IMG/VR virus record: IMGVR_UViG_3300035182_002389
Coordinates: 64,001 to 128,000 of that record
Origin: a virus
Taxonomy: Duplodnaviria; Caudoviricetes
Strand: one strand, 5' to 3'
DNA length: 64,000 bases
Shown here piece after piece: positions 1,465-62,539 of the stretch. The notes beneath the pieces were generated by a model. The model saw only the letters and a program-made list of their open reading frames with translations, was not told the origin of the DNA and made no database searches. A program made the translations under genes and the position numbers. Numbering within the stretch: position 1 is the first letter of the stretch; each line of letters opens with the position of its first letter.

Positions 1465-1564
1465 CGATCGGCTTACCGCAAGTTGCTCCTTCCGACCATG
1501 ATCGATACCCTCATGCGAAACACGACGCCCGCTCCTTGGGCGCGCGAAACGAAGGGTGCCGATC

Positions 1565-2506
1565 ATGGCCGCGAAGAAGTCTGCGAAGAAGAAGACCGCC
1601 AAGAAGAAGGCGAAGAGCGCGAAGAAGCCGGCCGTGACGATGGCCGAGCGAGCGAAGGCCTCCAAGGCCCGCGCGCGCGCGAGGGCCCGCGGCAAGGCTT
1701 CGCGCAAGAGCAAGCGAGAGGCGGCGAGCCAAGATGCCGTGACGCTGAAGACGGTCGTGAACGCGCGCGGTGAGCGCGTCCCGGTCGATGCGAAGGGTTG
1801 GCCCGTCGGCACCTCGGCTTGGACGGCCCCTGCACACGCGACCAAGGGCACGGCGAAGAAGCACTGGATCAACTCGTACAAGCCGATCCGTGTGCCGCCG
1901 GCGAAGCGCGACGGCAACTTCTACTGGCTCACCGACAAGAACCAGATCGTCTACAACGCGACGGGCCTGCTCACCGAGACGCTCGCCTACGCGAAGCCCG
2001 AGGTCGCGAAACGCGTCATGCACCACGCAACCAAGGCCGCGAAGGCTTGGGCGAAGAAGTCCGCGGCGAAGATCGCGAAGCTCGCGAAGTCCGAGGGCAA
2101 GTCGACCATCGCGAAGGTGAAGCCCGCGAAGCGCACGGCGAAGAAGACCGCGAAGAAGACCGCCAAGAAGACCGCCCACCAAGGCCGCGTCCATCCGACC
2201 GCGGCAGTGAACGACAGGCCGCGCTACTGGATGCGCGTCGGCGGCAAGCTGAAGCCGAGCGGCGGCAAGGCGATGGGCATCTTCCCCCACGACAAGTGGG
2301 CCGTGACCTACCTGCTCGCGGGTGAAGACCCGAAGCGCGACGTGGGCGTGCTCTTCGTCAGCGCTCGCAAGAACACTGGCGCGAAGCGGGCGGCCAAAGC
2401 GAAGCTTGGCAAGACCCACAAGGGCTTCCGCATCCTCGCCGCGTTCTCGCCTGCTGTGTACGAGCGCAAGCGGGCCAAGGAGCGCGGGGTCATCATCCGC
2501 GACTGA
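1565..2506 (+). CDS. Lys/Ala-rich histone H1-like basic protein
   Basis: AAKKSAKKKTAKKK and AKRTAKKTAKKTAKKT repeats separated by globular segments. Confidence 0.75.
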   Translation: MAAKKSAKKKTAKKKAKSAKKPAVTMAERAKASKARARARARGKASRKSKREAASQDAVTLKTVVNARGERVPVDAKGWPVGTSAWTAPAHATKGTAKKHWINSYKPIRVPPAKRDGNFYWLTDKNQIVYNATGLLTETLAYAKPEVAKRVMHHATKAAKAWAKKSAAKIAKLAKSEGKSTIAKVKPAKRTAKKTAKKTAKKTAHQGRVHPTAAVNDRPRYWMRVGGKLKPSGGKAMGIFPHDKWAVTYLLAGEDPKRDVGVLFVSARKNTGAKRAAKAKLGKTHKGFRILAAFSPAVYERKRAKERGVIIRD

Positions 2507-2992
2507 CTAGCGACGCGCGCTCCGCCAGCGCCGCACGATGACAGGCACATGGGTGAGCCGGTCGTGCAGCGCGGCGTTGTAGCGGTGGATGCCGTCGTTC
2601 AGGTGCAGCAGCTTGTCCTTGCTGTTGGTCTGGTCGCCAGGGACGACATCGAGAGCGGGCAAGGGGATGCCCGCCTCGATGGCTTCGAGGGCCCTCTGTA
2701 GCCGCTCGGGCTTCCAGACCTTCTCGGGCGCGATCGCGCGAACGTCGGCCCACGTGAAGAACGCACGCTCGTAGAGGCCGTGGCTCACGATGGAGTCGCG
2801 GACAGCCTCCGGGTCGTTGATGTTGTTCAGACGGCGCTGGGCGTCCTGGGCGTCCAAGGCGAACGTGCGCGAGCCCTTCGGGGGCGGCGCGATGTCGGGG
2901 GTCGGGATCGGGGGCCTCGGACGGCGCATGCCAGCGATCCTACGCGATCGGTGCGCTTTTGCGGCCGAAACTGCATTATGAGGTACATGCAC
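2507..2992 (-). CDS. ParB/Srx-like domain protein
   Basis: C-terminal PLPALDV...LNDGIHRYNAA...VPVIV (DGxHR motif). Confidence 0.65.
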   Translation of the reverse strand: MHVPHNAVSAAKAHRSRRIAGMRRPRPPIPTPDIAPPPKGSRTFALDAQDAQRRLNNINDPEAVRDSIVSHGLYERAFFTWADVRAIAPEKVWKPERLQRALEAIEAGIPLPALDVVPGDQTNSKDKLLHLNDGIHRYNAALHDRLTHVPVIVRRWRSARR

Positions 2993-3016
2993 TTGACAGA
3001 TGATGTACGTTGTGAG
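2993..3016 (+). promoter_or_regulatory. early-type promoter motif, copy 1
   Basis: TTGACA-GATGATGTAC-GTTGTG; aligns with the copies at 3432 and 12095. Confidence 0.55.
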
Positions 3017-3116
3017 AGTCTCGGATTCGCAATGAGGCGTGGCCGGGATAGGTCCGGCGGGCCAAGGCGAGGCGAGATTCGGCGAGGCTCCCTTCGGGGA
3101 GAGGACAGGTCAGGCC

Positions 3117-3338
3117 ATGAGCAGGAAGTATTACAGCGTCGAGGTAAGCCTCAAGGTGGCCTTCTTCGTCGATGGTGAGGCGGACGATGTTGCCATTCGC
3201 GACACTGTCGTTCAGGAGCTTTCAGAGGAGATGCACGACGTCGACTTCATGAAGCTCTACGACTTCGAGCCGCCTCCGTGGAAAGAGATCACGCGCAGGG
3301 AGGCTCACGAGATCGGGCTCGCCCACGAAGAGCGCTAG
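3117..3338 (+). CDS. hypothetical protein
   Basis: MSRKYYSVEVSLKVAFF...; acidic, coding-like codon use. Confidence 0.65.
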   Translation: MSRKYYSVEVSLKVAFFVDGEADDVAIRDTVVQELSEEMHDVDFMKLYDFEPPPWKEITRREAHEIGLAHEER

Positions 3339-3376
3339 CTGAGGAGAGTCGAGGGTGAGGGCCGCTTCGGGCGGCA

Positions 3377-3391
3377 GGCTTGCGATAAGCC
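3377..3391. promoter_or_regulatory. dyad motif GGCTT-N5-AAGCC
   Basis: GGCTTGCGATAAGCC, intergenic. Confidence 0.7.
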
Positions 3392-3431
3392 GAAGACGAC
3401 GACGGCGCAAAACGCGCCGAAAACGAATCGT

Positions 3432-3455
3432 TGGACAGGTTATGTACTTTGTGTG
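3432..3455 (+). promoter_or_regulatory. early-type promoter motif, copy 2
   Basis: TGGACA-GGTTATGTAC-TTTGTG upstream of the helicase. Confidence 0.5.
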
Positions 3456-3518
3456 AAGCTCGCATCATTCTCGGCGTCGGCCCGCTGTGGACTCGACCCG
3501 AACCAGAGGAGCGACAAT

Positions 3519-5030
3519 ATGAGCGAGCAGATGTCCCTGACGGGGACAGATACAGGCGCGGCCGTGGACGCCGCGCGCACGTGGAGCCCGTACCAAAAGG
3601 CGGTGTTCCACTTCGTGCAGTTCGGAAAAGGGAACGCGGTCGTCCGCGCGGTGCCGGGGTCGGGCAAGACGACCACCATCGTCGAAGCGGCGAAGCTCGT
3701 TCCGCCCGGCAAGAAAGCCGCCTTCGTCGCCTTCAACGGCAAGATCGCCGAAGAGCTGAAGAAGCGTCTGCCTCGGGGCGTTCCGGCAATGACGACGCAC
3801 AGCTTCGGCCTTCGCGCGCTTCGCAACGTGAGGCCGCAGACGCAGGTGAAGCTCGACAAGGGCGACAAGATCGTCCGCAGCATCCTCGAAGGCTGGGACA
3901 ACAACCGGCGCATCGAAGACGTCGAGCAGGACCCGTACGCGTCCTACGACAACTTCCGCCTCGTGCGAAAGGCGGTGGGACTCGCGAAGGGGATGCTGCG
4001 TCACCGTTCGACCTTCCTCGACATGCTCGACGAGTTCGAGCTGGAGTCGAAGAATCTGACGGCCGACCAAATCTCGGAGGCCGTTCTTCGCACGATGCTC
4101 CAGAGCCGCGAAGACGAAGAGACGGCCGACTACGACGACATGATCTGGCTGCCGTGCATCAAGAAGGTGCCGGTCCCGAAGTTCGACTACATCTTCGTCG
4201 ACGAGACGCAGGACCTGAACGCGTCGAAGATCCACCTCGTGCTCAAGGCGGCCGAGGGCGGGAGGGTCATCGCGGTCGGCGACCCGCGCCAGTCGATCTA
4301 CAGCTTCGCCGGCGCCGACGTGAACACGATGGAGCGCGTGCAAGAGGCGCTGAACGCTGAAGTCTTGCCGCTCAGCGTGTCGTACCGCTGCGCAAAGAGC
4401 ATCGTGCGCGAGGCGCAGCGCATCGAGGCGACCATCGAGCACGCGGAGGGCGCCCCCGAGGGCCTCGTGCGCACGATCCGCATCGAGAAGATCGAGGGCG
4501 AGCTGCGCGGCGGCGATTTTGTCGTGAGCCGCTTGAACGCGCCCATCATCTCGCTCTGCTTCCGGCTCATCTCGCAAGGGCGCCCGGCGTACGTGCAAGG
4601 CCGCGAGATCGGCGCGAGCCTCAAGACCACGATCGACAAGAGCAAGGCCGAGACGGTCGAAGACCTCTTGAAGTTCATCGGCGAGTGGCACACCAAAGAG
4701 ATCCAGCGGCTCACGGCCAAGGGCGTCTCGACGGACTCGGTCGACGACCGCCGCGCGTGCATCGAGGCGCTCGCCGAGGAGAAGGCCGACATCTGGGAGG
4801 TCTACGAGGCCATCGACCGCGTGTTCGCGGACGCCGAGGACTCGGCGAAGATTCGCCTCTCCTCGGTCCATCGCGCGAAGGGGCTCGAAGCGAGCCGCGT
4901 CTTCGTTCTTCAGGACACCTTCTACCTCGAAGACACGATTGAGGAAGCGAACTTGGAGTACGTCGCCTTGACTCGCGCGAAGACCGAGCTGGTCTACGTG
5001 CAGGGCGTCAAAATCTACAAGGCGGGATGA
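3519..5030 (+). CDS. UvrD/Rep-like superfamily 1 helicase
   Basis: Walker A AVPGSGKTT, VDETQD, VGDPRQSIYSFAGA, LSVSYRC, SSVHRAKGLE, YVALTRAK. Confidence 0.93.
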   Translation: MSEQMSLTGTDTGAAVDAARTWSPYQKAVFHFVQFGKGNAVVRAVPGSGKTTTIVEAAKLVPPGKKAAFVAFNGKIAEELKKRLPRGVPAMTTHSFGLRALRNVRPQTQVKLDKGDKIVRSILEGWDNNRRIEDVEQDPYASYDNFRLVRKAVGLAKGMLRHRSTFLDMLDEFELESKNLTADQISEAVLRTMLQSREDEETADYDDMIWLPCIKKVPVPKFDYIFVDETQDLNASKIHLVLKAAEGGRVIAVGDPRQSIYSFAGADVNTMERVQEALNAEVLPLSVSYRCAKSIVREAQRIEATIEHAEGAPEGLVRTIRIEKIEGELRGGDFVVSRLNAPIISLCFRLISQGRPAYVQGREIGASLKTTIDKSKAETVEDLLKFIGEWHTKEIQRLTAKGVSTDSVDDRRACIEALAEEKADIWEVYEAIDRVFADAEDSAKIRLSSVHRAKGLEASRVFVLQDTFYLEDTIEEANLEYVALTRAKTELVYVQGVKIYKAG

Positions 5031-5033
5031 CCC

Positions 5034-5438
5034 GTGAAGCCGATTCTGATCCGCACGTTCGAGAACATCACGCTCCGGTACGACTCGCGGTGCATGAACT
5101 GTCGCGAGCGCATCCTTCGCCAGAATCGCGCTTGGCGCGGTCAAGGGCGAGGAAAGATGCTTTGCACGCCGTGCCACACTGAGATCATCGAACAGCTCTA
5201 TCCGAGCACGTGCTCGTGGGCGCTTACGATCGTACACGTGACCATGTCGCCGATGATGCTTACCAAACACCGCCTGGCCGCCGTTCGATGCGGCAAGGCG
5301 CGCGTGTTCCGGCAGGACGAATACGTTTGCGAGCGGGCGAAAGACCACACGGGGCCCCATTCCAAGCTTCTCGATGCGAACACGGTTGCCGACTGGCTCG
5401 ACGCTGAAGAGCAAGCCGTGTCGGCGGAGGTGCCGTGA
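5034..5438 (+). CDS. Cys-rich (zinc-finger-like) hypothetical protein
   Basis: CMNC, CTPC and C-x9-C-x5-H motifs. Confidence 0.6.
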   Translation: MKPILIRTFENITLRYDSRCMNCRERILRQNRAWRGQGRGKMLCTPCHTEIIEQLYPSTCSWALTIVHVTMSPMMLTKHRLAAVRCGKARVFRQDEYVCERAKDHTGPHSKLLDANTVADWLDAEEQAVSAEVP

Positions 5439-5905
5439 TGGGAACCTATCTCCACATCGCGTACGAGGCTTGGGACAAGTCGGAGAACGCGTGGCGCCAC
5501 CACTTCCACAACGAGCAGGACGGCTCGGCCGACAACCACCCGTTCTACACGGCGTTCAAGAACTACCCGCTCCACTTCTTCTTCCGCCTGCTCGCGGACG
5601 GCGAGCCGTACGACACGCCGTCGCTCCTGCCCGCCTACCCGGAAGAGGGTTTCACGTACAAGTGGCCGTACGCGGCCTCACCCGAGACCTGGAACGCGCT
5701 CGGCGGCGAATCCGACGGCGCGTACATCGCGACGCTCGGCGCTATCTTCGCGCGCATGAAGGTCCTCGACGCGCACGTCGGCGAAGAGGTCTGCAAGGTC
5801 ATGCGAGCCCCCGAGGTCGCCCTCTACCGCGAGCGCGTCCTCACCGTCTTCGCGGCCATGGTCCCGATGCCCTCCTACGGGCGTCTGCTTTGGAGGTTCT
5901 CGTGA
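5438..5905 (+). CDS. hypothetical protein
   Basis: MGTYLHIAYEAWDK...; start overlaps the upstream stop (TGATG). Confidence 0.65.
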   Translation: MGTYLHIAYEAWDKSENAWRHHFHNEQDGSADNHPFYTAFKNYPLHFFFRLLADGEPYDTPSLLPAYPEEGFTYKWPYAASPETWNALGGESDGAYIATLGAIFARMKVLDAHVGEEVCKVMRAPEVALYRERVLTVFAAMVPMPSYGRLLWRFS

Positions 5906-6330
5906 GCCGATCCCCCGATTGCCTCGGTTGTCGAGGCGTGGAACCTGACCTCTGCGGCGAGTGCATGGCGCACCGTTGGCGCGAGGAGGGGCGCGCGCGA
6001 GAGCGAGCCCAGGTGGGCGCTCTCTTCTGCCGAATGCTCGGCAAGGTGATGGACATGGAGGCCATCCGCCGGCTGCTCGACAGCGTGCCGAAGGGCGAGT
6101 GGAAGACGTGCTCCGAGGAGGGGCCGTTTCGCGGCACCAACCGCCAGACGCACTCGGTGTGCATCTACAAGGACGATTTCTCCGAGTCCGACGAAGAGCA
6201 CCAGTGCATCACGACGGGCGTCGGCGACGACGAGAAGAATGCCTACGCCGTCGCGAACTTCGTCGCCCAATCGCACACCATCCTCACCGACCTCTTGGCC
6301 CTCTACGACGGCAAACCAGAGGCGCCGTGA
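5902..6330 (+). CDS. hypothetical protein, paralog of 6327..6743
   Basis: GTGA coupling; CxxC..CxxC N-terminus; VPKGEW...EGP...AVANFVAQSH. Confidence 0.65.
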   Translation: MSRSPDCLGCRGVEPDLCGECMAHRWREEGRARERAQVGALFCRMLGKVMDMEAIRRLLDSVPKGEWKTCSEEGPFRGTNRQTHSVCIYKDDFSESDEEHQCITTGVGDDEKNAYAVANFVAQSHTILTDLLALYDGKPEAP

Positions 6331-6743
6331 CGGACTCCCCCTACTGGAAGGCCATGGCGAAGGGGCTTCACTGCGAGCCGAGCCCGGCCAAACCGTGCCC
6401 GCGGTGCGGAATGCCAACGCCTCGAAGCGTCTGCCTCGGGTGCGACAACAACGACCTGCGCCGCGAGCTGGACAAGGCCCGCGAGCTGCTGCGCCTCATC
6501 GACGCGTCCCAGATTCGCGCGATGCTCGCGAAGGTTCCCCAGGGCATCTGGGAGGCTGTGCAGGACGAAGGGCCGCCTCGGGGTCGTCGGATCGTGACGA
6601 CGAGCGTGTACGCGCGTCGGCACCAAGAGAAGCCCGAACAGGTCACCTTCGGCATCGGCACCGACCACAAGAAGGCGCGCGACATCGCCGATTTCATCGC
6701 GTACGCGCACATGACGCTCGTCACCCTCGGAGGCCGACTGTGA
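6327..6743 (+). CDS. hypothetical protein, paralog of 5902..6330
   Basis: GTGA coupling; CPRC..CLGC; VPQGIW...EGP...DIADFIAYAH. Confidence 0.65.
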   Translation: MTDSPYWKAMAKGLHCEPSPAKPCPRCGMPTPRSVCLGCDNNDLRRELDKARELLRLIDASQIRAMLAKVPQGIWEAVQDEGPPRGRRIVTTSVYARRHQEKPEQVTFGIGTDHKKARDIADFIAYAHMTLVTLGGRL

Positions 6744-7219
6744 GCCGCGGACCCAACACGCCCGGCAAGGTCGGCCGCCTTGCGCACGCGAAGTACCAAG
6801 GGGCTGCCGCGGAGAACGTCAGCCACGCCCAAGGGGCCTCGGCTTGGTCGGTCGGCGCCGAGCATCAGCGAGCCCTCGATCTTCACGACATCGATCGCTG
6901 TCTCGCTGAGCCTCGCTTGAGCCAGGGCGCGCACATGAAGCTGCGCGCGTGGAAGGAGTACCTCGCGAACGTTCCAACGCGAGCGCTCGCTGCCGGCAAC
7001 CGCGAGAACCTCGACCGCATGGTGAAGGTCGTCGAGATGTGGGCGGCCGGCGTCGAGGTCGTGAGCGATCTCGAAAAGAACCAGAAGCGCTGCGCGCTCG
7101 GCCGCATCCACAACGCCGAGGTGCGCCGCGCGAGCAACGCGGTGATGGACCGAGCGTTCGCGAAACCCGGCGAAGCTCCCCGTCCCCCGCGGCGCGCCAC
7201 CTCCGACAACGACGACTGA
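6740..7219 (+). CDS. hypothetical protein
   Basis: GTGA coupling; helical coding-like ORF. Confidence 0.55.
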   Translation: MSRGPNTPGKVGRLAHAKYQGAAAENVSHAQGASAWSVGAEHQRALDLHDIDRCLAEPRLSQGAHMKLRAWKEYLANVPTRALAAGNRENLDRMVKVVEMWAAGVEVVSDLEKNQKRCALGRIHNAEVRRASNAVMDRAFAKPGEAPRPPRRATSDNDD

Positions 7220-7227
7220 GGCCTTCG

Positions 7228-7527
7228 ATGAAGCCCTACGGCTACTACAACATGAATCTCATGTACGAGACGAGCTGCTCGCGCTGCCTTCAGCCGCTCG
7301 GGCGAGGCGCTCGCGTCTGGTACAGTAAATCGCTCGGCCAGGCGCTCTGCCCCGACTGCTTCGTCGTCGAATACCCGACCGACGAGGTGAAGATCCGACC
7401 GCAGGATCTGACGCCCGTCGAGATCCAGATCAGGGACGCTCCCTCGCGCTCGATGGCCCGGCGCCTCGCCGAACAAGCAGGTCTGCCGCCGCCTCGGTTC
7501 GAGAGCGCCCCAAAGAAAGAGGAGTGA
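7228..7527 (+). CDS. zinc-finger-like hypothetical protein
   Basis: CSRC...CPDC. Confidence 0.55.
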   Translation: MKPYGYYNMNLMYETSCSRCLQPLGRGARVWYSKSLGQALCPDCFVVEYPTDEVKIRPQDLTPVEIQIRDAPSRSMARRLAEQAGLPPPRFESAPKKEE

Positions 7528-7529
7528 GC

Positions 7530-7703
7530 ATGCTCGTGAAGGTCCAGTTCGTGATGGAGGTCGAGGTCGATCACCCCGGAGACGAAGAGGAGGCGTACGA
7601 CTACGTGAGCGACGAGCTGGAGCAGCGCGTCTGCACGGCAAAGGACCCCAGCGTCAACGTGATGCGCATCCACTCCTCACTGCTGCCGAAAGGGAAGGTC
7701 TGA
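7530..7703 (+). CDS. small acidic hypothetical protein (57 aa, below the ORF-track cutoff)
   Basis: SD GAGGAG; MLVKVQFVMEVEVDHPGDEEE...KGKV-stop, translated by hand. Confidence 0.6.
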   Translation: MLVKVQFVMEVEVDHPGDEEEAYDYVSDELEQRVCTAKDPSVNVMRIHSSLLPKGKV

Positions 7704-7706
7704 ATC

Positions 7707-8252
7707 ATGGCCGAAGGTCTCAACCGCGTGCTTCTCATCGGCAACCTCGGCGCGGACCCGGAGCTGCGCTACGGACAGGGCTCGGGCAACGCGTTCCTCA
7801 CGCTCCGCATCGCGACGTCGGAGAGCTACTTCGACAAGCGCAGCAACGAGCGGCGCGAGAAGACGGAGTGGCACGACGTGACGCTGTTCGGCAACGCGGC
7901 CGAACCGCTCAGCAAGTTTCTGCGTAAGGGGCGCCAGGTCTTCGTCGAGGGGCGCTTGGAGACCAGTAACTACGAGAAGGACGGGCAGAAGCACTATCGT
8001 ACGCGCGTCATCGCGTCGCGCGTGACGCTGCTCGGCTCCGCACCTTCGCGCGAGGATTCGCCCTCGCCTCGGCCCGACCCGAGCCGGCGCGCGCCGGTGA
8101 CCTCGCAGCGCCGCGAGCCGCCGGACCTCGGCGATTACGATCCGCACGGCGACTACGGCACGCGAGGCGCTCCCGCGCTGCCGAAGGGACCTGCGCGTGA
8201 CGACGATTTCCCGACGCCGTTCGACGGCGACGAAGACGACATCGCCTTCTAG
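7707..8252 (+). CDS. ssb: single-stranded DNA-binding protein
   Basis: LNRVLLIGNLGADPELRY...TEWHDV...GRQVFVEGRL; acidic C-terminal tail DDDIAF. Confidence 0.95.
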   Translation: MAEGLNRVLLIGNLGADPELRYGQGSGNAFLTLRIATSESYFDKRSNERREKTEWHDVTLFGNAAEPLSKFLRKGRQVFVEGRLETSNYEKDGQKHYRTRVIASRVTLLGSAPSREDSPSPRPDPSRRAPVTSQRREPPDLGDYDPHGDYGTRGAPALPKGPARDDDFPTPFDGDEDDIAF

Positions 8253-8259
8253 GAGCGCC

Positions 8260-9045
8260 ATGAGCACCCGTTCGCGTGAAGCCATCGCCATCGAGGGGCG
8301 CCTGACCGCCTATCAGACGCCCGCGCGCAGAGAGGCCATCGCAACCCTTCCCTCGGACGCGCGCAGCGGGTTCACGCTCCTCGATGGCGCCGTGCCCGTA
8401 TCCGCCGGCGAAACGGCGCTCGTGCTCAGTACGCGTGAGCTGGACGCGCTCGCGCCGTTCGAGCCGACCTCGACGCGCATGCGCAACTTCTACGCGTGGG
8501 CGAAGAGGGACTGTGCGACGAGCCGTGCGACGAGCCGTGCGCTGCACGCCGCGCGCACGAAGACGGGCGGCTTCTACGTCTGGTTCTGCTCGACCGACGA
8601 GGCGCTCGCGTTCCTGCGCCTCATCGAAGCCGCCGCTTGGAAGCAGCTCCTGCAAGCGATGACGGACGCCGACAAGACAGGCGTGCACGAGGCCGCGTTC
8701 TGGCTCCAGCGCGCCTCTCAGAACCCCGTGGCGTGGCTCCTTGCGGCAGAAGCGCTCGCGAACGCGGGCCTCGACAGGTACGCCGAGACGCTCTCGTCCC
8801 TCGCGCGTGCGCAGGCGCCCGAGGCGTGCGCGGTCATCGACATGCTGATGATCCACCGCGCCGAGGAGGCCGAAGTCGACCCTCGCTACGCTTCAGCGCC
8901 CGCCGACCGTGAAGCGGACATGCGTCGAGCGTTCGCGCGGCGCGAGGCGTGGCGCAAGCTTCACTGCGAGCCCGCGTGCGACGGCGTGTGGGGCACGGGC
9001 TGCAAGGGATGCCACGAGGCCATCCCGGAAGACTTCGAGGGTTGA
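8260..9045 (+). CDS. hypothetical protein
   Basis: SD AGGAG; 261-aa helical ORF with C-terminal Cys cluster. Confidence 0.6.
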   Translation: MSTRSREAIAIEGRLTAYQTPARREAIATLPSDARSGFTLLDGAVPVSAGETALVLSTRELDALAPFEPTSTRMRNFYAWAKRDCATSRATSRALHAARTKTGGFYVWFCSTDEALAFLRLIEAAAWKQLLQAMTDADKTGVHEAAFWLQRASQNPVAWLLAAEALANAGLDRYAETLSSLARAQAPEACAVIDMLMIHRAEEAEVDPRYASAPADREADMRRAFARREAWRKLHCEPACDGVWGTGCKGCHEAIPEDFEG

Positions 9046-9048
9046 ACG

Positions 9049-9303
9049 ATGGCTTGCGACAAGTCACCAGACCGCGCGCACGTCTCAGGGCGCGCGGAGA
9101 CCGACGAGGAGAAGCGAGCCATCCTCGGCCACATCTACGAGGCGTGGATCAAGGTGCCGACGGCGCGCCTCGGCCAAGTCATCGTCGCGAGGGTGCCCGG
9201 CGTGTACCCCAACGCCTCGCTCTTCTACATCGAGGACGAGAGGCTCGCGTCCGAGATCGAGGATGACGCGACGCTCACCGAGAAGCTGATCGGCGGCAGA
9301 TAG
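9049..9303 (+). CDS. hypothetical protein
   Basis: ...RLGQVI...LFYIEDERL; typical small phage protein composition. Confidence 0.65.
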   Translation: MACDKSPDRAHVSGRAETDEEKRAILGHIYEAWIKVPTARLGQVIVARVPGVYPNASLFYIEDERLASEIEDDATLTEKLIGGR

Positions 9304-9579
9304 ATGCCCGCCGTACTTCTCAAGTTCGAGGACATCGCCCCGCGGCACGTGGCGCTCTTGCGCGAGACGGCGCGCAGAGCCCACAAGCTCTACTACCCCG
9401 ACCGATGGGCGAGCCGAGATGCAGAAGACATTGCCGCGTGGAAGCTCCTGATGGATCGAGGGCTCATCGAGAAGAAGGAGGGGACCATCGCGACCGGCGA
9501 GACTCCTTGGCAGCCCGTCGAATACCTCGACGCTGCCGATGCCGGCCACAAGTTGCTCGAAGCCTACCGCCCGAGGTGA
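9304..9579 (+). CDS. hypothetical protein (possible winged-helix)
   Basis: abuts upstream stop; LMDRGLIEK motif. Confidence 0.6.
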   Translation: MPAVLLKFEDIAPRHVALLRETARRAHKLYYPDRWASRDAEDIAAWKLLMDRGLIEKKEGTIATGETPWQPVEYLDAADAGHKLLEAYRPR

Positions 9580-9582
9580 GCC

Positions 9583-9882
9583 ATGAAGACGACGCAGAAA
9601 CGCGGGATCACGGAGACGACCGTCACCTTTCGGATGTCGAGCGCGCTCAAAGAGGAGGTCGCCTCTTTCGCGCGCGAGCGTGGCGAGACGATGACGGCGT
9701 TCGTCTGCCGCGCCTTGCACGACGCGACCAGACCCGGCGTCCGCGCCGAGGTCATCGAAGAGAAACTCGCCGCCCGCATGAGCGAGCGCGAAGGAGAGCT
9801 TCGCGAGCAGCTCCTCGAAACCCAAGCCGACCTCGACGCCGCGAAACGTGTCATCGCGCGTCTGAAGGGGATCGGGCCATGA
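9583..9882 (+). CDS. ribbon-helix-helix/CopG-like DNA-binding protein with coiled coil
   Basis: TVTFRMSSALKEEVASFARERGETMTAFVCRAL fits the beta-alpha-alpha RHH pattern. Confidence 0.65.
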   Translation: MKTTQKRGITETTVTFRMSSALKEEVASFARERGETMTAFVCRALHDATRPGVRAEVIEEKLAARMSEREGELREQLLETQADLDAAKRVIARLKGIGP

Positions 9883-18971: not shown

Positions 18972-18986
18972 GGCTTACCGCAAGCC
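18972..18986. promoter_or_regulatory. dyad motif
   Basis: GGCTTACCGCAAGCC, 10 nt upstream of the ATG at 18961. Confidence 0.75.
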
Positions 18987-20600: not shown

Positions 20601-20615
20601 GGCTTACGCCAAGTC
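20601..20615. promoter_or_regulatory. dyad motif
   Basis: GGCTTACGCCAAGTC between fibre genes. Confidence 0.75.
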
Positions 20616-22247: not shown

Positions 22248-22262
22248 GACTTGCGACAAGTC
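22248..22262. promoter_or_regulatory. dyad motif
   Basis: GACTTGCGACAAGTC. Confidence 0.75.
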
Positions 22263-25044: not shown

Positions 25045-25059
25045 GACTTGCTGCAAGCC
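25045..25059. promoter_or_regulatory. dyad motif
   Basis: GACTTGCTGCAAGCC. Confidence 0.75.
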
Positions 25060-27782: not shown

Positions 27783-27867
27783 GCTCTCGGGCTCCTTGTC
27801 GGGCGGTGCTCCGCCATCGTAGCCGACTTACGACAAGCTCCATAGCTCCGCGTGGTACACTCGGGCC

Positions 27868-28567: not shown

Positions 28568-28571
28568 CGGC

Positions 28572-29519
28572 TTACAGCAAGTGCCCCGCGGCGATGTCGG
28601 CGGCAATGGCAACTTCGACCTTCGCTAGCTCCTGCACGTTCGTGACGATGACGCCCAGCTCGCGGTTGCGCGTCATCGATCCGGTCGAGAAGTTCACCGA
28701 GCCGATGTACGCCGCGGAGCCGTCCGCGAGGACGACTTTTGCGTGGATGTAGGGGCCGAGGCCCGAGTGTCCCGAGGATGGTGCGCCGCTCACATACACC
28801 TTGCCGCCCGCGGCCTTCACCATCGCGACGGAAGGGTTCGCGGCCGGAAGGTTCCCGGGCGCGTTCGCGACGACGAGGCGCACCTGAACGCCCTTTGCCA
28901 CCGCAGCGATGAGCCCTCTTGCGACGTCGTGGTCGCTGAACTCTTCGCCCTCGACGTCGAGCGTGTGTTTCGCCGACGCGATGAGCGTCATGATCTTCAG
29001 CTTCGCGTTGTCAGGCGCGACGACGAGCGCGCCCGAGGCGACGATTGGCTTGCCTGCGAAGTCGGCTGCGAAGATGGCTTCAGCTTCTGCAACATCAGCC
29101 GGGATCGTGTCGATGACGAGGTACTCGCGGTTGTGCATCGGCCCGGAGATGGACGCGTTCATCGTCATGATCCACGCGACCTTGCCGTCGAGGAGGACGC
29201 ATTTCTCGTGCGTGTACGCGAAATGCGGCGAGGCCCAAGCAACCGACACCTTCGCGCTCGTGAGCGCGGCGAACGCGAGAGAGTTCGGGCTCTCGCCCGG
29301 CGTCGAGAACGCGAAGTGCTCATTGAGCACGACCTTCACGTCGAGCCCTCGCGCGTGCGCGGCGATGATCGCGCCCAGCACCTCGTGCGAGGTGAGCATG
29401 TACATCGTGACGTGGACGCTTTTGTTTGCCGCGTCGATGGCTGCGATCAGCTCCGCGCCGTTATGGCCGTTCGGCTCGACGAGAATCGAGACGCCGCCCG
29501 CAGCCAGATCGTCGACCAT
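28572..29519 (-). CDS. phospholipase D superfamily protein (two HKD motifs)
   Basis: HEKCVLLD and HAKVVLAD...GSVNFS...NRELG. Confidence 0.9.
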   Translation of the reverse strand: MVDDLAAGGVSILVEPNGHNGAELIAAIDAANKSVHVTMYMLTSHEVLGAIIAAHARGLDVKVVLNEHFAFSTPGESPNSLAFAALTSAKVSVAWASPHFAYTHEKCVLLDGKVAWIMTMNASISGPMHNREYLVIDTIPADVAEAEAIFAADFAGKPIVASGALVVAPDNAKLKIMTLIASAKHTLDVEGEEFSDHDVARGLIAAVAKGVQVRLVVANAPGNLPAANPSVAMVKAAGGKVYVSGAPSSGHSGLGPYIHAKVVLADGSAAYIGSVNFSTGSMTRNRELGVIVTNVQELAKVEVAIAADIAAGHLL

Positions 29520-30959: not shown

Positions 30960-30974
30960 GACTTGCGGCAAGTC
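30960..30974. promoter_or_regulatory. dyad motif
   Basis: GACTTGCGGCAAGTC between divergent genes. Confidence 0.75.
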
Positions 30975-34718: not shown

Positions 34719-34766
34719 GTTCTTCCTCACCGCTCTCTGATGTGCGGACAGCTTATCACAAGCCGG

Positions 34767-35436: not shown

Positions 35437-35451
35437 GGCTTGTGACAAGCC
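35437..35451. promoter_or_regulatory. dyad motif
   Basis: GGCTTGTGACAAGCC between divergent genes. Confidence 0.75.
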
Positions 35452-35885: not shown

Positions 35886-35900
35886 GACTTCCGACAAGCC
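35886..35900. promoter_or_regulatory. dyad motif
   Basis: GACTTCCGACAAGCC, 4 nt before TAGAAT. Confidence 0.75.
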
Positions 35901-37132: not shown

Positions 37133-37709
37133 CGCCGACATACCCCCATTCGAGGATCGAGTCGCCGTTCGTGTAGAGCGTGCGCGCGGGGACGACCTTG
37201 CTCACGATGGCGTAGTGGCCGCGCATCGGGCCTTCGCCGTGTGAGGCGGCATACGCGCGGTCGAGCGCCACCCAATCGCCCGGGTTGATGGTCGCGCGCC
37301 GAACCTTCTCGGGCGGCGGCATGGCGCGCAGTTGCGCGAGCGAGGCCACGATCGAGTCGTAGAGAGCAGATTTGGAGTGCGCGCCGTAGACAGCCCTGCG
37401 CGACGGCGGGAGCTGTCCGCGACGAAGCAGAGACGCGCGGTCGGCCTCCATCTGACGGATCTGCGCATCGCGGTTCGCGGGCAGCTTGATCGTCGCGCGG
37501 TAGATGCGCACCGGGCGGTTCGGATGGCCCCGCATGCGGCGGACAATCCCCCACGTGACGAGGTCCGTGCCGTCGCCGACGCCGTAGTACCGAGGGCCAA
37601 GCGACGAGTAGACGTCCTCAGGGTAGACGCTGCCCGCCGTGAGGTCGTGCAGCGGTGCCGCCTCGCGGCCGGGCGCTCTGTGGTCGATCCGGTAGTCGTC
37701 GTTGCTCAT
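37068..37709 (-). CDS. ART-fold-like protein whose C-terminus runs into repeat A
   Basis: VRIYRAT...INPGDWVAL..YA..HG...EWGY; last 20 aa encoded by the repeat. Confidence 0.55.
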   Translation of the reverse strand: MSNDDYRIDHRAPGREAAPLHDLTAGSVYPEDVYSSLGPRYYGVGDGTDLVTWGIVRRMRGHPNRPVRIYRATIKLPANRDAQIRQMEADRASLLRRGQLPPSRRAVYGAHSKSALYDSIVASLAQLRAMPPPEKVRRATINPGDWVALDRAYAASHGEGPMRGHYAIVSKVVPARTLYTNGDSILEWGYVGGESEGALKAPSAGVWGQSPQQ

Positions 37710-37960
37710 GACGTCTTTCGACGAAGGATCGCGAGAAAGTAGCGCACGACATAGAGCCGCGCGCTCTCGGAGAACGTTGCGACCGAGCGGCCTTGCGGAC
37801 TTTTCGGTCGGAGCATGTCGATCTCGTTCAGGACGACGTCGATGGAGACGAGCTTGTGGCGCGCGATGGTCTCGATCGCCTCCCAGAACTCGGGCTCCAG
37901 CGACACGCTGGTGCGCTTGCCGCGAAGACTCACGTTGCGGACGTTGGCAGAGCGAGGCAT
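37706..37960 (-). CDS. ribbon-helix-helix domain protein (RHH_4-like)
   Basis: RNVSLRGKRTSVSLEPEFWEAIETIA...SESARLYVVRYF. Confidence 0.85.
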   Translation of the reverse strand: MPRSANVRNVSLRGKRTSVSLEPEFWEAIETIARHKLVSIDVVLNEIDMLRPKSPQGRSVATFSESARLYVVRYFLAILRRKTS

Positions 37961-41395: not shown

Positions 41396-41410
41396 GACTT
41401 GCGGCAAGCC
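41396..41410. promoter_or_regulatory. dyad motif
   Basis: GACTTGCGGCAAGCC. Confidence 0.75.
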
Positions 41411-44116: not shown

Positions 44117-44131
44117 GGCTTGTCAGAAGTC
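44117..44131. promoter_or_regulatory. dyad motif
   Basis: GGCTTGTCAGAAGTC between divergent genes. Confidence 0.75.
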
Positions 44132-44479: not shown

Positions 44480-44494
44480 GACTTGTGCCAAGTC
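44480..44494. promoter_or_regulatory. dyad motif
   Basis: GACTTGTGCCAAGTC. Confidence 0.75.
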
Positions 44495-47268: not shown

Positions 47269-47283
47269 GACTTGTCGCAAGCC
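47269..47283. promoter_or_regulatory. dyad motif
   Basis: GACTTGTCGCAAGCC. Confidence 0.75.
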
Positions 47284-51559: not shown

Positions 51560-51574
51560 GGCTTGCGACAAGTC
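51560..51574. promoter_or_regulatory. dyad motif
   Basis: GGCTTGCGACAAGTC between divergent genes. Confidence 0.75.
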
Positions 51575-56048: not shown

Positions 56049-56063
56049 GGCTTATCGCAAGCC
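56049..56063. promoter_or_regulatory. dyad motif
   Basis: GGCTTATCGCAAGCC between divergent genes. Confidence 0.75.
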
Positions 56064-58080: not shown

Positions 58081-58440
58081 TCATCTCCCCGAGGAGTGAA
58101 CATTGAGCGTCACCATCACGACCTTCTCGCCGCCGTAGTCGTACGTGTCGACGCTCGGCGCATACTTCGCGACGGCCCCTCGCGCGTCCGTGTGGACCTT
58201 GCGCACGCCGGCGGCCCTCAGCGTTTTTGCGATCCAGTTGGCCGCGCGCAGCTCCAACTTCGCGTCGCCCGAGTCGACGCGGATGCCGCCCGCGTCGTAC
58301 CCTTCGACGTGCAGGGTCTCGGCCGAGAGTGCGACGAGGCGCACGCGGCTGCGAGGCTTCATGTAGCCGGCCTTCACCATCGCAGCGTCGAGCCTGCGTT
58401 GAAGTTCCATGCGGGCGAGGATGGTTTCGGCGCGACTCAT
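58081..58440 (-). CDS. hypothetical protein
   Basis: dyad-like site plus TACGCT 6 nt before the ATG. Confidence 0.6.
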   Translation of the reverse strand: MSRAETILARMELQRRLDAAMVKAGYMKPRSRVRLVALSAETLHVEGYDAGGIRVDSGDAKLELRAANWIAKTLRAAGVRKVHTDARGAVAKYAPSVDTYDYGGEKVVMVTLNVHSSGR

Positions 58441-58489
58441 CCTCGAAGCGTAGACGATCCCGATCCGCTTGTCGCAAGCCGCACAGCAC

Positions 58490-59223: not shown

Positions 59224-59238
59224 GACTTGTCGCAAGCC
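59224..59238. promoter_or_regulatory. dyad motif
   Basis: GACTTGTCGCAAGCC between divergent genes. Confidence 0.75.
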
Positions 59239-60155: not shown

Positions 60156-61124
60156 ATGGCCGAACATCTCATTTTCGACGGGCACAACCTTGCCGTGCGG
60201 TGCGCGCACGCCATCGAGGCGGCAGGGCTCACGAACGCGGACGGCGTGCCGACCGGCGAAGCGTTCGCCTTCCTCAAGGCCCTCGGCGGCTTCAAGACGC
60301 GCTTCCCACTCGCGAAGGTCACCGTCGTGTGGGACGGGTCGAGCCACAAGCGCAAGGCCGTCTTCGACGGGTACAAGGCCAGCCGCGGGATGCTCCGCAA
60401 GACCTTCCCCGTCGAGTACCTGAAGGGTCTTCTGCCCTTCCTTTCCGTTCGTCAGGCCATGAGCCCGACCGACGAGGCGGACGACGTCATCGGCGTCCTC
60501 GTGCGCGTTCGCTCCAGCGCAGAGCGAGATCGGGAACGCTCGCCTTCGGCGAGCTGGGAACGGGAACGGGAACGGGAAGAAGACCGCTTCACCATCGTCA
60601 CGACCGACTGCGATCTCCTTCAAACCGTCACGCCGAAGGTCCGCGTCCTCATGCCGCCAGCGGGCGCTGCAAAAGATCGCCGCGAGACCTTGTACGGCGA
60701 GATCGAGGTGCTTGCCGAGTACGGCGTGCCTGTCGGCCAGCTCCTCGACCTTCGCGCGCTCGCGGGAGACGTCTCCGACGAGATCCCCGGCGTGCCCGAG
60801 CTGGGGCCCAAGCGCGCCGCAAAACTCCTCACCTTCCACGGATCACTCGACGCCGTCTTCGAGGAGGCGCTGCGTGACAAGGCTCGCAAGCGCAAAGGCA
60901 TCCTCGCCTCGCCGATGACGGACCTTCAGCGCAAGAACCTGCGCGAGCACGAAGGAATCGTTCGACGCAATCTTGCGATCATGCGCCTCTCGGACGTCGA
61001 CGAGATCACGTACACCGAAGGCGCTTTCAAGGCTCTTCAAGCGGCCGTGCTTCTCCAGAAGCTCGACATCAAGGTCGACCCCATCCTCGACTTGTTCTTC
61101 CCGAAGCAGACCGCGTTCGCGTAG
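60156..61124 (+). CDS. stand-alone 5'-3' exonuclease/flap endonuclease (Pol I N-terminal type)
   Basis: IFDGHNL, VVWD, YKASR, EADDVIG, TTDCDLLQ, GDVSDEIPGVPELGPKRA (H3TH). Confidence 0.92.
   Translation: MAEHLIFDGHNLAVRCAHAIEAAGLTNADGVPTGEAFAFLKALGGFKTRFPLAKVTVVWDGSSHKRKAVFDGYKASRGMLRKTFPVEYLKGLLPFLSVRQAMSPTDEADDVIGVLVRVRSSAERDRERSPSASWEREREREEDRFTIVTTDCDLLQTVTPKVRVLMPPAGAAKDRRETLYGEIEVLAEYGVPVGQLLDLRALAGDVSDEIPGVPELGPKRAAKLLTFHGSLDAVFEEALRDKARKRKGILASPMTDLQRKNLREHEGIVRRNLAIMRLSDVDEITYTEGAFKALQAAVLLQKLDIKVDPILDLFFPKQTAFA
60522..60581 (+). repeat. dispersed repeat family B, copy 5, in-frame inside the exonuclease
   Basis: GAGCGAGATCGGGAACGCTCGCCttcGGCGAGCTGGGAACGGGAACGGGAACGGGAA = ERDRERSPSASWEREREREE. 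Confidence 0.88.
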
Positions 61125-61161
61125 CGGTGCTTCAGGGCGTACGCTTCCTTTCGAGGTAAGC

Positions 61162-61350
61162 ATGCCCAACAGTCGAACGCGCATTTGCTCACTCACGTGT
61201 CCCGAGCGCGTCGATTGCGAGGTGTGCGGCAAAAAGCTCTGCCACGCGCACGAGCCTCACCACGCAGATGGCTCCGTCGCAAGTTTTTCCGACGGCCACT
61301 ACCTTACGCCGACAGGCGTCGTCTGCGTCGCGCGTCACGCGCGAGGATGA
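61162..61350 (+). CDS. small Cys/His-rich protein
   Basis: CEVCGKKLCHAH; SD GAGGT. Confidence 0.45.
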   Translation: MPNSRTRICSLTCPERVDCEVCGKKLCHAHEPHHADGSVASFSDGHYLTPTGVVCVARHARG

Positions 61351-61351
61351 G

Positions 61352-61633
61352 TCAGTCGTCTTCATCGACGGAAATCCACCATCCCTCGGCGTGCTTGAAG
61401 CCCGCAGGGACGTGCCAGACGTAGAGCGGGTCGCCTTTGCGCGATCGCCCCGTCGTCAAAGAGGGGCGAACCGAGACGACGTAGTACGTGCGCGTCGGAT
61501 CTTTGCCGGCGACGCTCTTCGCGAGCGCTGCGAGCAGGCGCTCTTCGTTGCCTGCGCCAACCTCATGCGGACCGTCCACGATGGTCGAGTTCTTTACGCC
61601 GTGGACGACGACCGCGAGGGCTCTTTTCGACAT
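61352..61633 (-). CDS. hypothetical protein
   Basis: TAAAAT 6 nt before the ATG. Confidence 0.6.
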   Translation of the reverse strand: MSKRALAVVVHGVKNSTIVDGPHEVGAGNEERLLAALAKSVAGKDPTRTYYVVSVRPSLTTGRSRKGDPLYVWHVPAGFKHAEGWWISVDEDD

Positions 61634-61650
61634 GGGCGTATTTTACTTTG

Positions 61651-61756
61651 AGACGAGACAAGAGCGAGACTCAGACGAAAAGAACGACCTTCGGTCGAGC
61701 ACGGGCTTCGCCCGAGGACGCGCCTGCGGCACGAGGACGCGCCTTCGGCGCGAGGA
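61651..61756 (+). repeat. dispersed repeat family C, copy 3
   Basis: GA-rich leader, GACGAAAAGAAC-GACCttcGGTC-GAGCAC-GGGCttcGCCC-GAGGAC-GCGCCtgcGGCAC-GAGGAC-GCGCCttcGGCGC. Confidence 0.88.
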
Positions 61757-62485
61757 TTAGCTTAGCCAGTTCTGCACGGCCTGAAAGAGCCGAGGGGCCT
61801 TCCTCTGCATCGCGGAAGGGTCGAGCGCCCACCACGCGGCGGCATCCATCGCGCCCTCGAAGTTGCCCGCGAGCGCGTGGTAGGCCGTGATGGGCCGGTT
61901 CATCGACCCAAGGACTGCAATGACCTCTCGACCCGCCTCGGGGTTCAACGAGAAGGCGGCGTGGGCAGCTTCGTGCGCTGCGACCTTGCTGCCGCCGTGC
62001 ATCCGCGAGCCTGCGATCTCCGTCATCACGGGCAGGTGCGCGTTGATGACCGTCGCGCGGCCCGCGTGACACTCGCCAGAAGAGGTCGAAGAGCCCTCGA
62101 TGACGAGGAACTTGATGCGGATGCCGCGAAAGACGCGCCGCGCCACGATCATCGCTTCGCGTAGCAGCTCGCCGCCGCCGTCCATCGGGCGCCAGAGCCT
62201 CGCTTTTCCGAGCACTGGAGCCCACTTCTTCCAGCGCTCGACGTCGAGCGTCCACTTCGCGAGCGCGCGCGGCGGTCCGAGCACGGCGCCCACCGACCCG
62301 TTGCGACCTTGGTAGACGAGGTAGCCGTCCTTCAGGTCGTAGCCTGCGATGGCCGGCGCGAACGTGTCTTCGGTGTCGAAGGACTCCGCGTAGACCTTGC
62401 CGACGCCTTCGACGCGCACCCATCCCGCGGAGCCTTCCAGGCTCTTCTTCGCTCGCTTGCGAAGGGTGTCAGGGGTGAGCGGCAT
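61757..62485 (-). CDS. HExxH metallopeptidase-like protein
   Basis: VAAHEAAHAAF. Confidence 0.6.
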   Translation of the reverse strand: MPLTPDTLRKRAKKSLEGSAGWVRVEGVGKVYAESFDTEDTFAPAIAGYDLKDGYLVYQGRNGSVGAVLGPPRALAKWTLDVERWKKWAPVLGKARLWRPMDGGGELLREAMIVARRVFRGIRIKFLVIEGSSTSSGECHAGRATVINAHLPVMTEIAGSRMHGGSKVAAHEAAHAAFSLNPEAGREVIAVLGSMNRPITAYHALAGNFEGAMDAAAWWALDPSAMQRKAPRLFQAVQNWLS

Positions 62486-62524
62486 CTTCTGCTCATTCTG
62501 CGTACGTCAGGGCTCGCTGTCGAT

Positions 62525-62539
62525 GACTTTCAGTAAGCC
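62525..62539. promoter_or_regulatory. dyad motif
   Basis: GACTTTCAGTAAGCC. Confidence 0.7.

What the first reader, a model, noticed from the sequence alone, without database searches (positions are those of the whole stretch)
1470..62539. A 15-bp dyad (RRCTT-N5-AAGYC) marks gene starts across the non-early genome: a large regulon
Seen: 16 strict G[GA]CTT-N5-AAG[CT]C sites (3377, 18972, 20601, 22248, 25045, 30960, 35437, 35886, 41396, 44117, 44480, 47269, 51560, 56049, 59224, 62525). There are also 7 near matches (1470, 27825, 28569, 34750, 39711, 46637, 58466). Almost all are intergenic and upstream of a start codon, often between divergent genes. The spacer is biased to GTCGC/GCGAC. I found none in the co-oriented block from 3392 to 18971. 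A hand estimate of chance strict matches in 64 kb at about 68% GC is well below 1. Where a -10 box is visible, the dyad-to-box gap clusters at 2-7 nt or 13-19 nt (4 and 14 recur, one helical turn apart). Inference: a dimeric element-encoded activator or repressor controls dozens of single-gene units, including the fibre genes. The in-window DNA-binder candidates are the RHH proteins at 37706 and 9583, but the factor may lie outside the window.
Basis: partly seen in the sequence, partly recalled or inferred. Interest (0 to 1): 0.85.

Follow-up and report, generated by a model that had tools for sequence, protein, structure and literature searches.

The report
Dispersed palindromic operator of giant virus
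A 15-17 bp symmetric DNA word is repeated 54-77 times along a 202-kb uncultured virus, mostly on top of its gene promoters, and is most likely the docking site of one dimeric regulator (probably a repressor) that controls much of the viral genome: real and well supported, but a familiar kind of viral gene switch whose protein is still unidentified.

Summary
The motif is real. GRCTT-N5-AAGYC occurs 18 times in the window (0.19 expected) and 54 times in the whole 202.5-kb virus record; a weight matrix finds 77 sites against 3.6 in null sequence. The full site is a 17-bp palindrome, c-GRCTTG-YSR-CAAGYC-g. The half-sites pair only at spacer 5. The two halves are equivalent whatever the gene direction, and inner positions do not co-vary. 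This points to a rigid homodimer on DNA, not a hairpin. Sites sit in 14 of 21 divergent, 28 of 142 tandem and 0 of 9 convergent intergenic regions. They lie just upstream of, or on, -10-only leaderless promoters, at variable distance (centre about -22 to -39, some on the -10/+1). That favours repression by occlusion. The closest relative (helicase 64-68% identical) has its own version, GACTTCC-N-GGAAGTC. It includes a conserved double site ahead of the orthologous first gene of the virion block, so site and reader seem to co-evolve. The sites are not confined to a 'non-early' part, the 4/14 spacing rhythm is not significant, and no evidence ties the RHH proteins to the site. The scan already noted this motif in the neighbouring window of this genome, and analogous dispersed operators in other genomes.

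The parts
1470..1484 (.). near dyad GGCTTACCGCAAGTT (1 mismatch), tandem intergenic, 71 nt upstream of gene 1556-2506 (+)
3377..3391 (.). strict dyad, tandem intergenic, 61 nt upstream of the helicase gene 3453-5030 (+)
18972..18986 (.). strict dyad 10 nt upstream of the ATG of gene 18011-18961 (-); lies on the -10/+1 or 5' leader region
20601..20615 (.). strict dyad 27 nt upstream of gene 19434-20573 (-), a weak virion-structural PHROG hit
22248..22262 (.). strict dyad; 14 nt, then TACGCT, then 7 nt, then the ATG of gene 20631-22220 (-)
25045..25059 (.). strict dyad 31 nt upstream of gene 23667-25013 (-), which has a Shine-Dalgarno leader
27825..27839 (.). near dyad (1 mismatch) in the divergent region between the 905-aa gene 25065-27782 (-) and 27868-28116 (+); 16 nt from TGgTACACT on the + side and 3 nt from TACGAT on the - side
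28569..28583 (.). near dyad GGCTTACAGCAAGTG (1 mismatch) at the junction of genes 28139-28567 (-) and 28572-29519 (-); below my matrix threshold
30960..30974 (.). strict dyad shared by divergent leaderless promoters: 6 nt from TACGAT (- side) and 28 nt from TACTCT (+ side)
34750..34764 (.). near dyad (1 mismatch) 19 nt upstream of gene 33708-34730 (-)
35437..35451 (.). strict dyad in the divergent region 35391-35491
35886..35900 (.). strict dyad; 4 nt, then TGaTAGAAT, then 6 nt, then the ATG of gene 35917-36246 (+)
41396..41410 (.). strict dyad just after gene 41127-41390 (+), 92 nt upstream of gene 41503-41865 (+)
44117..44131 (.). strict dyad; 2 nt, then TAGGAT, then 7 nt, then the ATG of gene 43778-44101 (-)
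44480..44494 (.). strict dyad; 7 nt, then TGaTAATCT, then 7 nt, then the ATG of gene 44515-44910 (+); untouched in a 3.5%-diverged strain that has changes at 44477 and 44496
47269..47283 (.). strict dyad; 19 nt, then TGgTACGAT, then 7 nt, then the ATG of the lectin-like gene 46664-47245 (-)
51560..51574 (.). strict consensus dyad centred between two divergent leaderless promoters (11 nt from TACGCT on the - side, 14 nt from TGaTACGAT on the + side)
56049..56063 (.). strict dyad in a divergent region; 4 nt from TGgTACGAT on the - side
58466..58480 (.). near dyad (1 mismatch); 13 nt, then TACGCT, then 6 nt, then the ATG of gene 58081-58440 (-)
59224..59238 (.). strict dyad in a divergent region; 13 nt from TATGCT (- side), 43 nt from TGaTAGGAT (+ side)
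62525..62539 (.). strict dyad in the divergent region 62486-62657, which also holds a (GGGAAC)n array
37706..37960 (-).
9583..9882 (+).

Best explanation
The dyad is the operator of one symmetric (homodimeric) sequence-specific DNA-binding regulator. That regulator is most likely virus-encoded, and it acts mainly as a repressor. Each site is a self-contained 17-bp palindrome whose two arms lie one helical turn apart. It sits on or just upstream of the virus's -10-only (often extended -10) promoters, which mostly serve leaderless single-gene units. A bound dimer would therefore block the host RNA polymerase. About 30 more copies inside genes would act as extra binding or roadblock sites. Shown here: the motif, its symmetry, its rigid spacing, its association with promoters, and its conservation with altered specificity in a relative. 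Inferred: protein binding, the direction of the effect, and a viral origin of the factor. Whether the repressor silences the whole genome in a dormant or carrier state, or shuts genes off during infection, is not decided.
For: Counts: 18 sites against 0.19 expected in the window; 54 against 1 for the reversed control in the genome; 77 matrix sites against 3.6 in Markov-3 nulls. Symmetry and rigidity: inverted half-sites occur only at spacer 5 (54 against 0.7), never at other spacings or everted, and lone half-sites are at background (789 against 714). The upstream and downstream halves do not differ with respect to gene direction. Not a hairpin: complementarity at positions 6/10 and 7/9 equals the independence expectation (0.40 against 0.41; 0.38 against 0.45). 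Promoter link: 44 of 77 sites lie in the 11% of non-coding DNA (p = 1e-22). Divergent regions 14/21 (4.5 per kb), tandem 28/142 (1.8 per kb), convergent 0/9, coding 0.17 per kb. TAnnnT peaks 6-7 nt before start codons, marking leaderless promoters, and 22 of 54 such promoters carry a dyad upstream. A -10 box lies within 20 nt of 41% of intergenic sites against 14% background. Repressor-type geometry: gaps of 2-19 nt put the centre at about -22 to -39 without periodicity. Some sites overlap the -10 itself (TAAGCT at genome 152230), lie 3-10 nt before the ATG (window 18972), or lie at codon 2 to +29 (window 9051 and 5467). The -35 boxes are equally weak with and without a dyad. Co-evolution: the closest relative has GACTTCC-N-GGAAGTC, again only at spacer 5 (6 strict sites in 41 kb). 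Position is conserved too: a doublet 23-24 bp apart precedes the orthologous first gene of the virion block, and a site follows the 136-aa orthologue.
Against: No protein has been linked to the site. The five recognisable DNA binders are a 385-aa double HTH_3 protein, a 569-aa sigma-4.2-like protein, an ECF sigma, an RHH_4 protein and an RHH-like 99-aa protein. Each is absent from the searchable relatives, of the wrong type for a symmetric site, or widespread and unlinked. No integrase, M78 protease or clear ParB was found to argue for a dormant state. There are no RNA data, so promoters and the direction of regulation are predictions. A minority of sites lie 28-43 nt or more upstream of the -10, where activation would also be possible. 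My gene calls come from a home-made caller.
Confidence: 0.55

Rival explanations
1. The same dimeric factor acts as an activator, or as a dual activator/repressor, that switches on middle or late genes from weak -10-only promoters.
For: Dyad promoters have poor -35 boxes. The conserved doublet lies about 130 nt upstream of the first gene of the virion block. A few sites lie 28-43 nt upstream of the -10.
Against: Dyad-less promoters have equally poor -35 boxes and as many extended -10s. The spacing to the -10 is spread over 2-19 nt without phase, which does not fit one contact geometry. Several sites overlap the -10/+1 or the first codons. About 30 sites are intragenic.
Confidence: 0.15
2. The site is read by a host-encoded regulator that the virus has co-opted, as host LexA is used by the tectivirus GIL01 (own knowledge).
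For: No conserved viral DNA binder could be assigned.
Against: The relative's sites differ at the inner arm positions while keeping spacing and position, which is what a co-evolving viral pair predicts, although different hosts could give the same picture. The word resembles no regulator site that I know. The host is unknown, so its chromosome could not be scanned.
Confidence: 0.15
3. The dyad is a -35-like promoter element for a virus-encoded sigma: the ECF sigma at 150287-150865, or the 569-aa protein with a sigma region 4.2-like helix-turn-helix.
For: The virus encodes both proteins. Each half-site contains CTTG, which resembles the TTG of a -35 box.
Against: No conserved element lies at any fixed offset from the dyad (information content about 0 beyond +/-1). 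The distance to the -10 varies by 17 nt or more. Half-sites count only when paired at exactly N5. The associated -10 boxes are of the housekeeping TAnnnT type, not the ECF type. The 569-aa protein has no homologue in the database that holds the relative's proteins.
Confidence: 0.04
4. The dyad works as an RNA or DNA hairpin: a terminator, a processing site or a stability element.
For: It is a 6-bp inverted repeat with a 3-nt centre.
Against: There is no compensatory variation, and no site in any of the 9 convergent regions. Sites lie upstream of the -10, so the local promoter does not transcribe them. There is no T-run. A/C and T/C mismatches at positions 6/10 are common.
Confidence: 0.03
5. 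The sites have a non-transcriptional role: docking for a genome-organising, partition or packaging protein, or boundaries at which gene cassettes are exchanged.
For: 31 sites are intragenic and mostly lack a -10 box. The sites are spread over the whole genome. The window's right half is a mosaic of single-gene units bounded by sites.
Against: The strong preference for divergent over tandem over convergent regions, and the closeness to -10 boxes, are not expected for such roles. No clear ParB was found.
Confidence: 0.08

Closest known systems
17-bp palindrome TGTTCGG-N3-CCGAACA of Cluster O mycobacteriophages (Corndog and relatives; PMC4351075)
   Same: A short perfect-arm palindrome with a 3-bp centre and more than 30 copies per genome. 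Copies lie between genes, near 5' ends and inside genes. Orientation shows no link to transcription. The phages use SigA-type promoters and some leaderless mRNAs, and the binding protein is unknown.
   Different: The sequence is unrelated. Those are tailed phages of 70 kb. There the repeat was not shown to sit on promoters; here the promoter association is quantified and a relative carries a diverged version.
Immunity repressor and stoperators of Cluster A mycobacteriophages (L5, Bxb1; PMC6550527, PMC9283540)
   Same: One virus-encoded repressor has 20-30 sites across the genome. Some are true operators in promoters and most are elsewhere, blocking elongation. The site motif diverges between related phages together with the repressor.
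   Different: Stoperators are asymmetric 13-14 bp sites read by a monomer and are oriented with transcription. Here the site is symmetric and orientation-free, and most copies are at promoters. No repressor or prophage-maintenance gene has been identified.
Phage P1 C1 repressor with dispersed operators; phiC31 repressor with conserved inverted repeats (own knowledge, not checked here)
   Same: A single repressor controls many scattered promoters of a large viral genome through a repeated 17-bp site. In phiC31 the site is an inverted repeat in a high-GC host with leaderless genes.
   Different: The P1 operators are asymmetric. Both phages are tailed and temperate, with known repressors. I could not retrieve the phiC31 papers, so this comparison rests on memory.
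Host LexA plus gp7 control of the tectivirus GIL01 (own knowledge)
   Same: A tailless, membrane-containing virus with a protein-primed polymerase whose promoters are held off through palindromic operators.
   Different: Only a few operators at two or three promoters are involved, and a host protein reads them.

Membership tests
Dispersed-operator master repressor systems (P1 C1 / Cluster A type) | One short site repeated many times across the viral genome, far above chance | tested here: met
   54 strict and 77 matrix sites against 0.7-3.6 expected
Dispersed-operator master repressor systems (P1 C1 / Cluster A type) | Sites overlap promoters of lytic genes | tested here: met
   By prediction only. 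Divergent 14/21, tandem 28/142 and convergent 0/9 regions carry sites; the site centre lies at about -22 to -39 from predicted starts. There are no transcript data.
Dispersed-operator master repressor systems (P1 C1 / Cluster A type) | A cognate virus-encoded repressor | tested here: inconclusive
   Five recognisable DNA binders were found and none could be linked to the site
Dispersed-operator master repressor systems (P1 C1 / Cluster A type) | A temperate or plasmid-prophage lifestyle (integrase or partition genes) | tested here: inconclusive
   No integrase and no M78 protease; a ParB_N hit only at E = 0.05. The record is 94% complete, and a protein-primed linear replicon would not need an integrase.
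Cluster A stoperators specifically | An asymmetric site oriented with transcription | tested here: not met
   The site is symmetric and its halves are equivalent relative to gene direction
Sigma-dependent bipartite promoter (-35 element) | Fixed spacing (+/-1) to a -10 element | tested here: not met
   Gaps of 2-19 nt and more; no positional information outside the 17-mer
Structured RNA or intrinsic terminator | Compensatory base changes; location at gene ends | tested here: not met
   No covariation; 0 of 9 convergent regions carry a site
Cluster O-type palindromic repeat | A perfect-arm palindrome with a 3-bp centre, 30 or more copies, both inter- and intragenic, no orientation | tested here: met
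   against PMC4351075. This is a resemblance of form, not homology.

The most novel reading that the evidence does not exclude
The palindrome is the handle of a genome-wide silencer that lets an exceptionally large, apparently tailless virus with a protein-primed polymerase persist quietly (as a carrier or linear-plasmid state). It would be read by a homodimer with a DNA-binding fold that current profile libraries do not recognise. Its specificity would drift between related viruses, so that they form immunity groups, and the intragenic copies would act as transcription roadblocks.
Probability: 0.2. Interest if true: 0.6.

Novelty: new member of a known kind. Interest (0 to 1): 0.45.

Why it matters
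The virus belongs to a barely described lineage: 202 kb, with almost no protein matching known phage families. Its gene control is otherwise opaque. The palindrome gives a ready map of about 45 promoter-linked control points and a bait sequence for fishing out the regulator. Because a relative carries a shifted version at the same places, the pair of viruses offers a natural experiment on how an operator and its reader change specificity together. The mechanism itself, one regulator with many scattered operators, is well known from tailed phages. The value therefore lies in annotating and opening up this lineage, not in a new principle.

Tried and rejected
1. Known-phage similarity: megablast and tblastn against 50,697 phage records found nothing.

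2. Distant relatives from IMG/VR (L014 and L015; 37-43% identity, low GC) lack the motif and were uninformative.

3. ECF sigma as host marker: the only genome hit was a 28%-identical Acidobacteriota MAG, which says nothing about the host. 'relatives' is not available for virus records, so the host-chromosome test could not be run.

4. The whole 160-kb relative record is not searchable.

5. Candidate regulators:
- 385-aa double HTH_3: no homologue, and a two-head monomer fits a perfectly symmetric site poorly.
- 569-aa sigma-4.2-like protein: no homologue.
- RHH-like 99 aa: one homologue, on a 1.2-kb contig.
- RHH_4: relatives widespread on unrelated contigs.
- Pfam on about 70 proteins and nine six-frame family scans of the virus's own genome: HTH_17, RHH_1, AbrB/MazE, MerR, GerE, integrase and M78 all empty; ParB sub-threshold.
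- ESM Atlas on three small switch-positioned proteins: uninformative.

6. RNA evidence: no RNA run holds the virus.

7. Population constraint: the variant table was truncated, leaving only one anecdotal case of a dyad untouched between two flanking substitutions.

8. The helical-phase idea was tested and rejected.

9. The -35 substitution idea was tested and rejected.


Full report
**What the window is.** The window is bases 64001-128000 of a 202,518-bp virus record with 65% G+C, judged 94% complete. It matches no catalogued phage at the DNA or protein level, and few of its proteins hit any family. Those that do are a helicase, RtcB, a protein-primed type B polymerase, an ECF-type sigma, a collagen-like protein and a lysozyme. 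I made my own gene calls with a codon-usage caller: 330 genes, 89% coding.

**The observation.** GRCTT-N5-AAGYC occurs 18 times in the window against 0.19 expected. It occurs 54 times in the whole record against 1 for the reversed control. A count matrix shows that the inner positions are constrained too: the full site is c-GRCTTG-Y-S-R-CAAGYC-g. With that matrix, 77 sites score 10 or more, against 3.6 in Markov-3 simulated genomes.

**Nature of the element.**
- *Spacing.* The two arms are found together only at a spacer of exactly 5 (54 cases against 0.7 expected). There is nothing above chance at spacers 0-20 otherwise, nor in everted arrangement, and single arms are at background.
- *Symmetry.* In one-directional contexts the upstream and downstream arms have the same base preferences.
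- *No covariation.* Positions 6/10 and 7/9 are complementary no more often than independent choice predicts.
- *No flanking element.* Nothing is conserved at any fixed offset within 40 nt on either side.
- *Coding copies.* The 31 copies inside genes lie in different proteins and in two reading frames, so they are kept at the DNA level.

Together these features describe a self-contained site for a rigid symmetric dimer. They do not fit a hairpin, a repeated peptide, or half of a bipartite promoter.

**Where the sites lie.**
- 44 of the 77 sites are in the 11% of the genome that is non-coding (p = 1e-22). In the window, 16 of the 18 strict sites are intergenic (p = 6e-15).
- By region type: 14 of 21 divergent regions carry a site (4.5 per kb), 28 of 142 tandem regions do (1.8 per kb), and none of 9 convergent regions does. 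Coding DNA has 0.17 per kb. The element therefore follows promoters, not gene ends.
- The promoters themselves are visible. TAnnnT piles up 6-7 nt before start codons (33 genes at those two offsets against 1-2 per offset elsewhere), often as TGnTAnnnT. This is the architecture of leaderless mRNAs.
- Of 54 such promoters, 22 have a dyad upstream. The dyad-to-box gaps are 2-19 nt, plus four of 28-43 nt. There is no 10-11 bp rhythm (p about 0.5).
- That places the centre of the site at about -22 to -39.
- Other sites overlap the -10 itself (TAAGCT at genome 152230), lie 3-10 nt before the ATG (window 18972), or lie at codon 2 to +29 of a gene (window 9051 and 5467).
- Promoters with and without a dyad have equally poor -35 boxes and similar extended -10 usage.

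A factor bound at such varied positions inside the polymerase footprint is most simply a repressor. An activator would need a fixed geometry.

**Comparative evidence.** An exhaustive search with the helicase found one clearly closer relative, 68% identical. It lies on a 160.8-kb metagenomic contig, of which I read 41 kb.
- That virus has six strict matches and about four one-mismatch matches, again only at spacer 5. Its arms read GACTTCC-N-GGAAGTC. The outer five bases are the same; positions 6-7 differ.
- Two sites are positionally orthologous. First, a doublet 23-24 bp apart lies in the divergent region ahead of the orthologous membrane-protein gene that opens the virion block (genome 128038 and 128061, ahead of gene 128206; relative 92218 and 92242, ahead of gene 92562; the proteins are 39% identical). 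Second, a site lies directly after a 136-aa orthologue that is 69% identical.
- Conserved placement with shifted sequence is what a co-evolving operator and reader pair shows in Cluster A mycobacteriophages (PMC6550527).
- More distant relatives lack the word.

**Who reads it.** This remains open. I ran six-frame scans of the virus's own genome with nine DNA-binding or lifestyle families, and Pfam on about 70 proteins. They found only five recognisable DNA binders:
- *385-aa protein with two Xre-type HTH domains.* It is the last gene of a right-end operon that has a near-dyad at its head. It has no detectable homologue, although the database holds the relative's proteins. A monomer with two different heads also fits a symmetric site poorly.
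- *569-aa protein.* It has a sigma-4.2-like helix-turn-helix, a long coiled coil and a one-mismatch dyad upstream. It too has no detectable homologue.
- *ECF sigma*.
- *RHH_4 protein at window 37706*. Its relatives are common on unrelated contigs.
- *RHH-like 99-aa protein at window 9583*. It has one homologue, on a 1.2-kb contig.

A host-encoded reader cannot be excluded, because the host is unknown.

**Lifestyle.** No integrase or M78 protease was found, and ParB only below threshold. No RNA run holds the virus. In a strain about 3.5% diverged, substitutions fall 3 nt before and 2 nt after the dyad at 44480-44494 but not inside it. That is anecdotal, since only about 0.5 changes would be expected inside it.

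**Comparison with known systems.** In form, the closest precedent is the 17-bp palindrome of Cluster O mycobacteriophages: more than 30 copies, between and within genes, function unknown (PMC4351075). In logic, the closest are the dispersed operators of P1 C1 and the stoperators of Cluster A phages (PMC6550527, PMC9283540). Stoperators differ in being asymmetric, oriented and read by a monomer. An earlier agent of this scan reached the same general reading for the neighbouring window of this genome, and similar dispersed operators were noted in phage-plasmids.

**Verdict.** The feature is real and statistically very strong, and it is a new instance of a known kind of control. What is added here:
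- the proof of rigid symmetric recognition;
- the promoter-class distribution;
- the repressor-type geometry;
- the diverged but positionally conserved sites in a relative;
- the exclusion of several candidate readers.

Noticed in passing
window 17165-17356; also 49007-49147, 49551-49563, 60560-60578, 62586-62604 (genome 19.9, 27.9, 54.5 and 142.2 kb as well): Arrays of the hexamer TTCCCG / CGGGAA (up to about 20 units), several of them paired as inverted arrays 60-130 bp apart. The largest lies in the gene-free gap where the plus-strand block meets the minus-strand block. Other readers of this genome noted hairpin-repeat families.
   Followed up: partly
genome 150287-150865 (-), outside the window: A complete ECF-type sigma factor (regions 2 and 4), a lone minus-strand gene within the virion block. 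It is leaderless, and its divergent control region has no dyad.
   Followed up: partly
genome 51439-53148 (+), outside the window: A 569-aa protein combining Cys clusters, a helix-turn-helix almost identical in pattern to sigma-70 region 4.2, a long coiled coil and a C-terminal stretch reminiscent of the RNA polymerase alpha C-terminal domain. No homologue was found in 5.8 billion proteins. It is possibly a polymerase-directed factor.
   Followed up: partly
genome 199203-200360 (-), outside the window: A 385-aa protein with two Xre-type HTH domains and long low-complexity linkers, without any detectable homologue. My codon-based caller did not call it.
   Followed up: partly
window-wide; statistics on the whole genome: About 54 genes have TAnnnT (often TGnTAnnnT) 6-9 nt before the ATG and no Shine-Dalgarno box, which implies widespread leaderless mRNAs. 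About 186 other genes have a Shine-Dalgarno-like box. This may help to narrow down the host.
   Followed up: partly
window 2507-2929 (-): A lone minus-strand, leaderless 140-aa gene with a sub-threshold ParB_N/sulfiredoxin-like match (E = 0.05; a DGIHR-type motif is visible by eye).
   Followed up: no
window 47005-47099: ARAGORN calls a 95-nt tRNA-Pro(CGG) that overlaps a predicted lectin-like gene on the other strand, so it is possibly a false call. A normal tRNA-Gln lies at genome 145865-145937 and is followed 13 nt later by a dyad.
   Followed up: no
window 44102-44514: A 413-bp divergent non-coding region with one dyad at each end, each on its own leaderless promoter. About 350 bp between them has no called gene. 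This region is among the most variable between strains.
   Followed up: no
L022 13784-15767 (relative contig, record about 77.2-79.2 kb): A 2-kb stretch without called genes in the related virus, starting right at one of its dyads.
   Followed up: no
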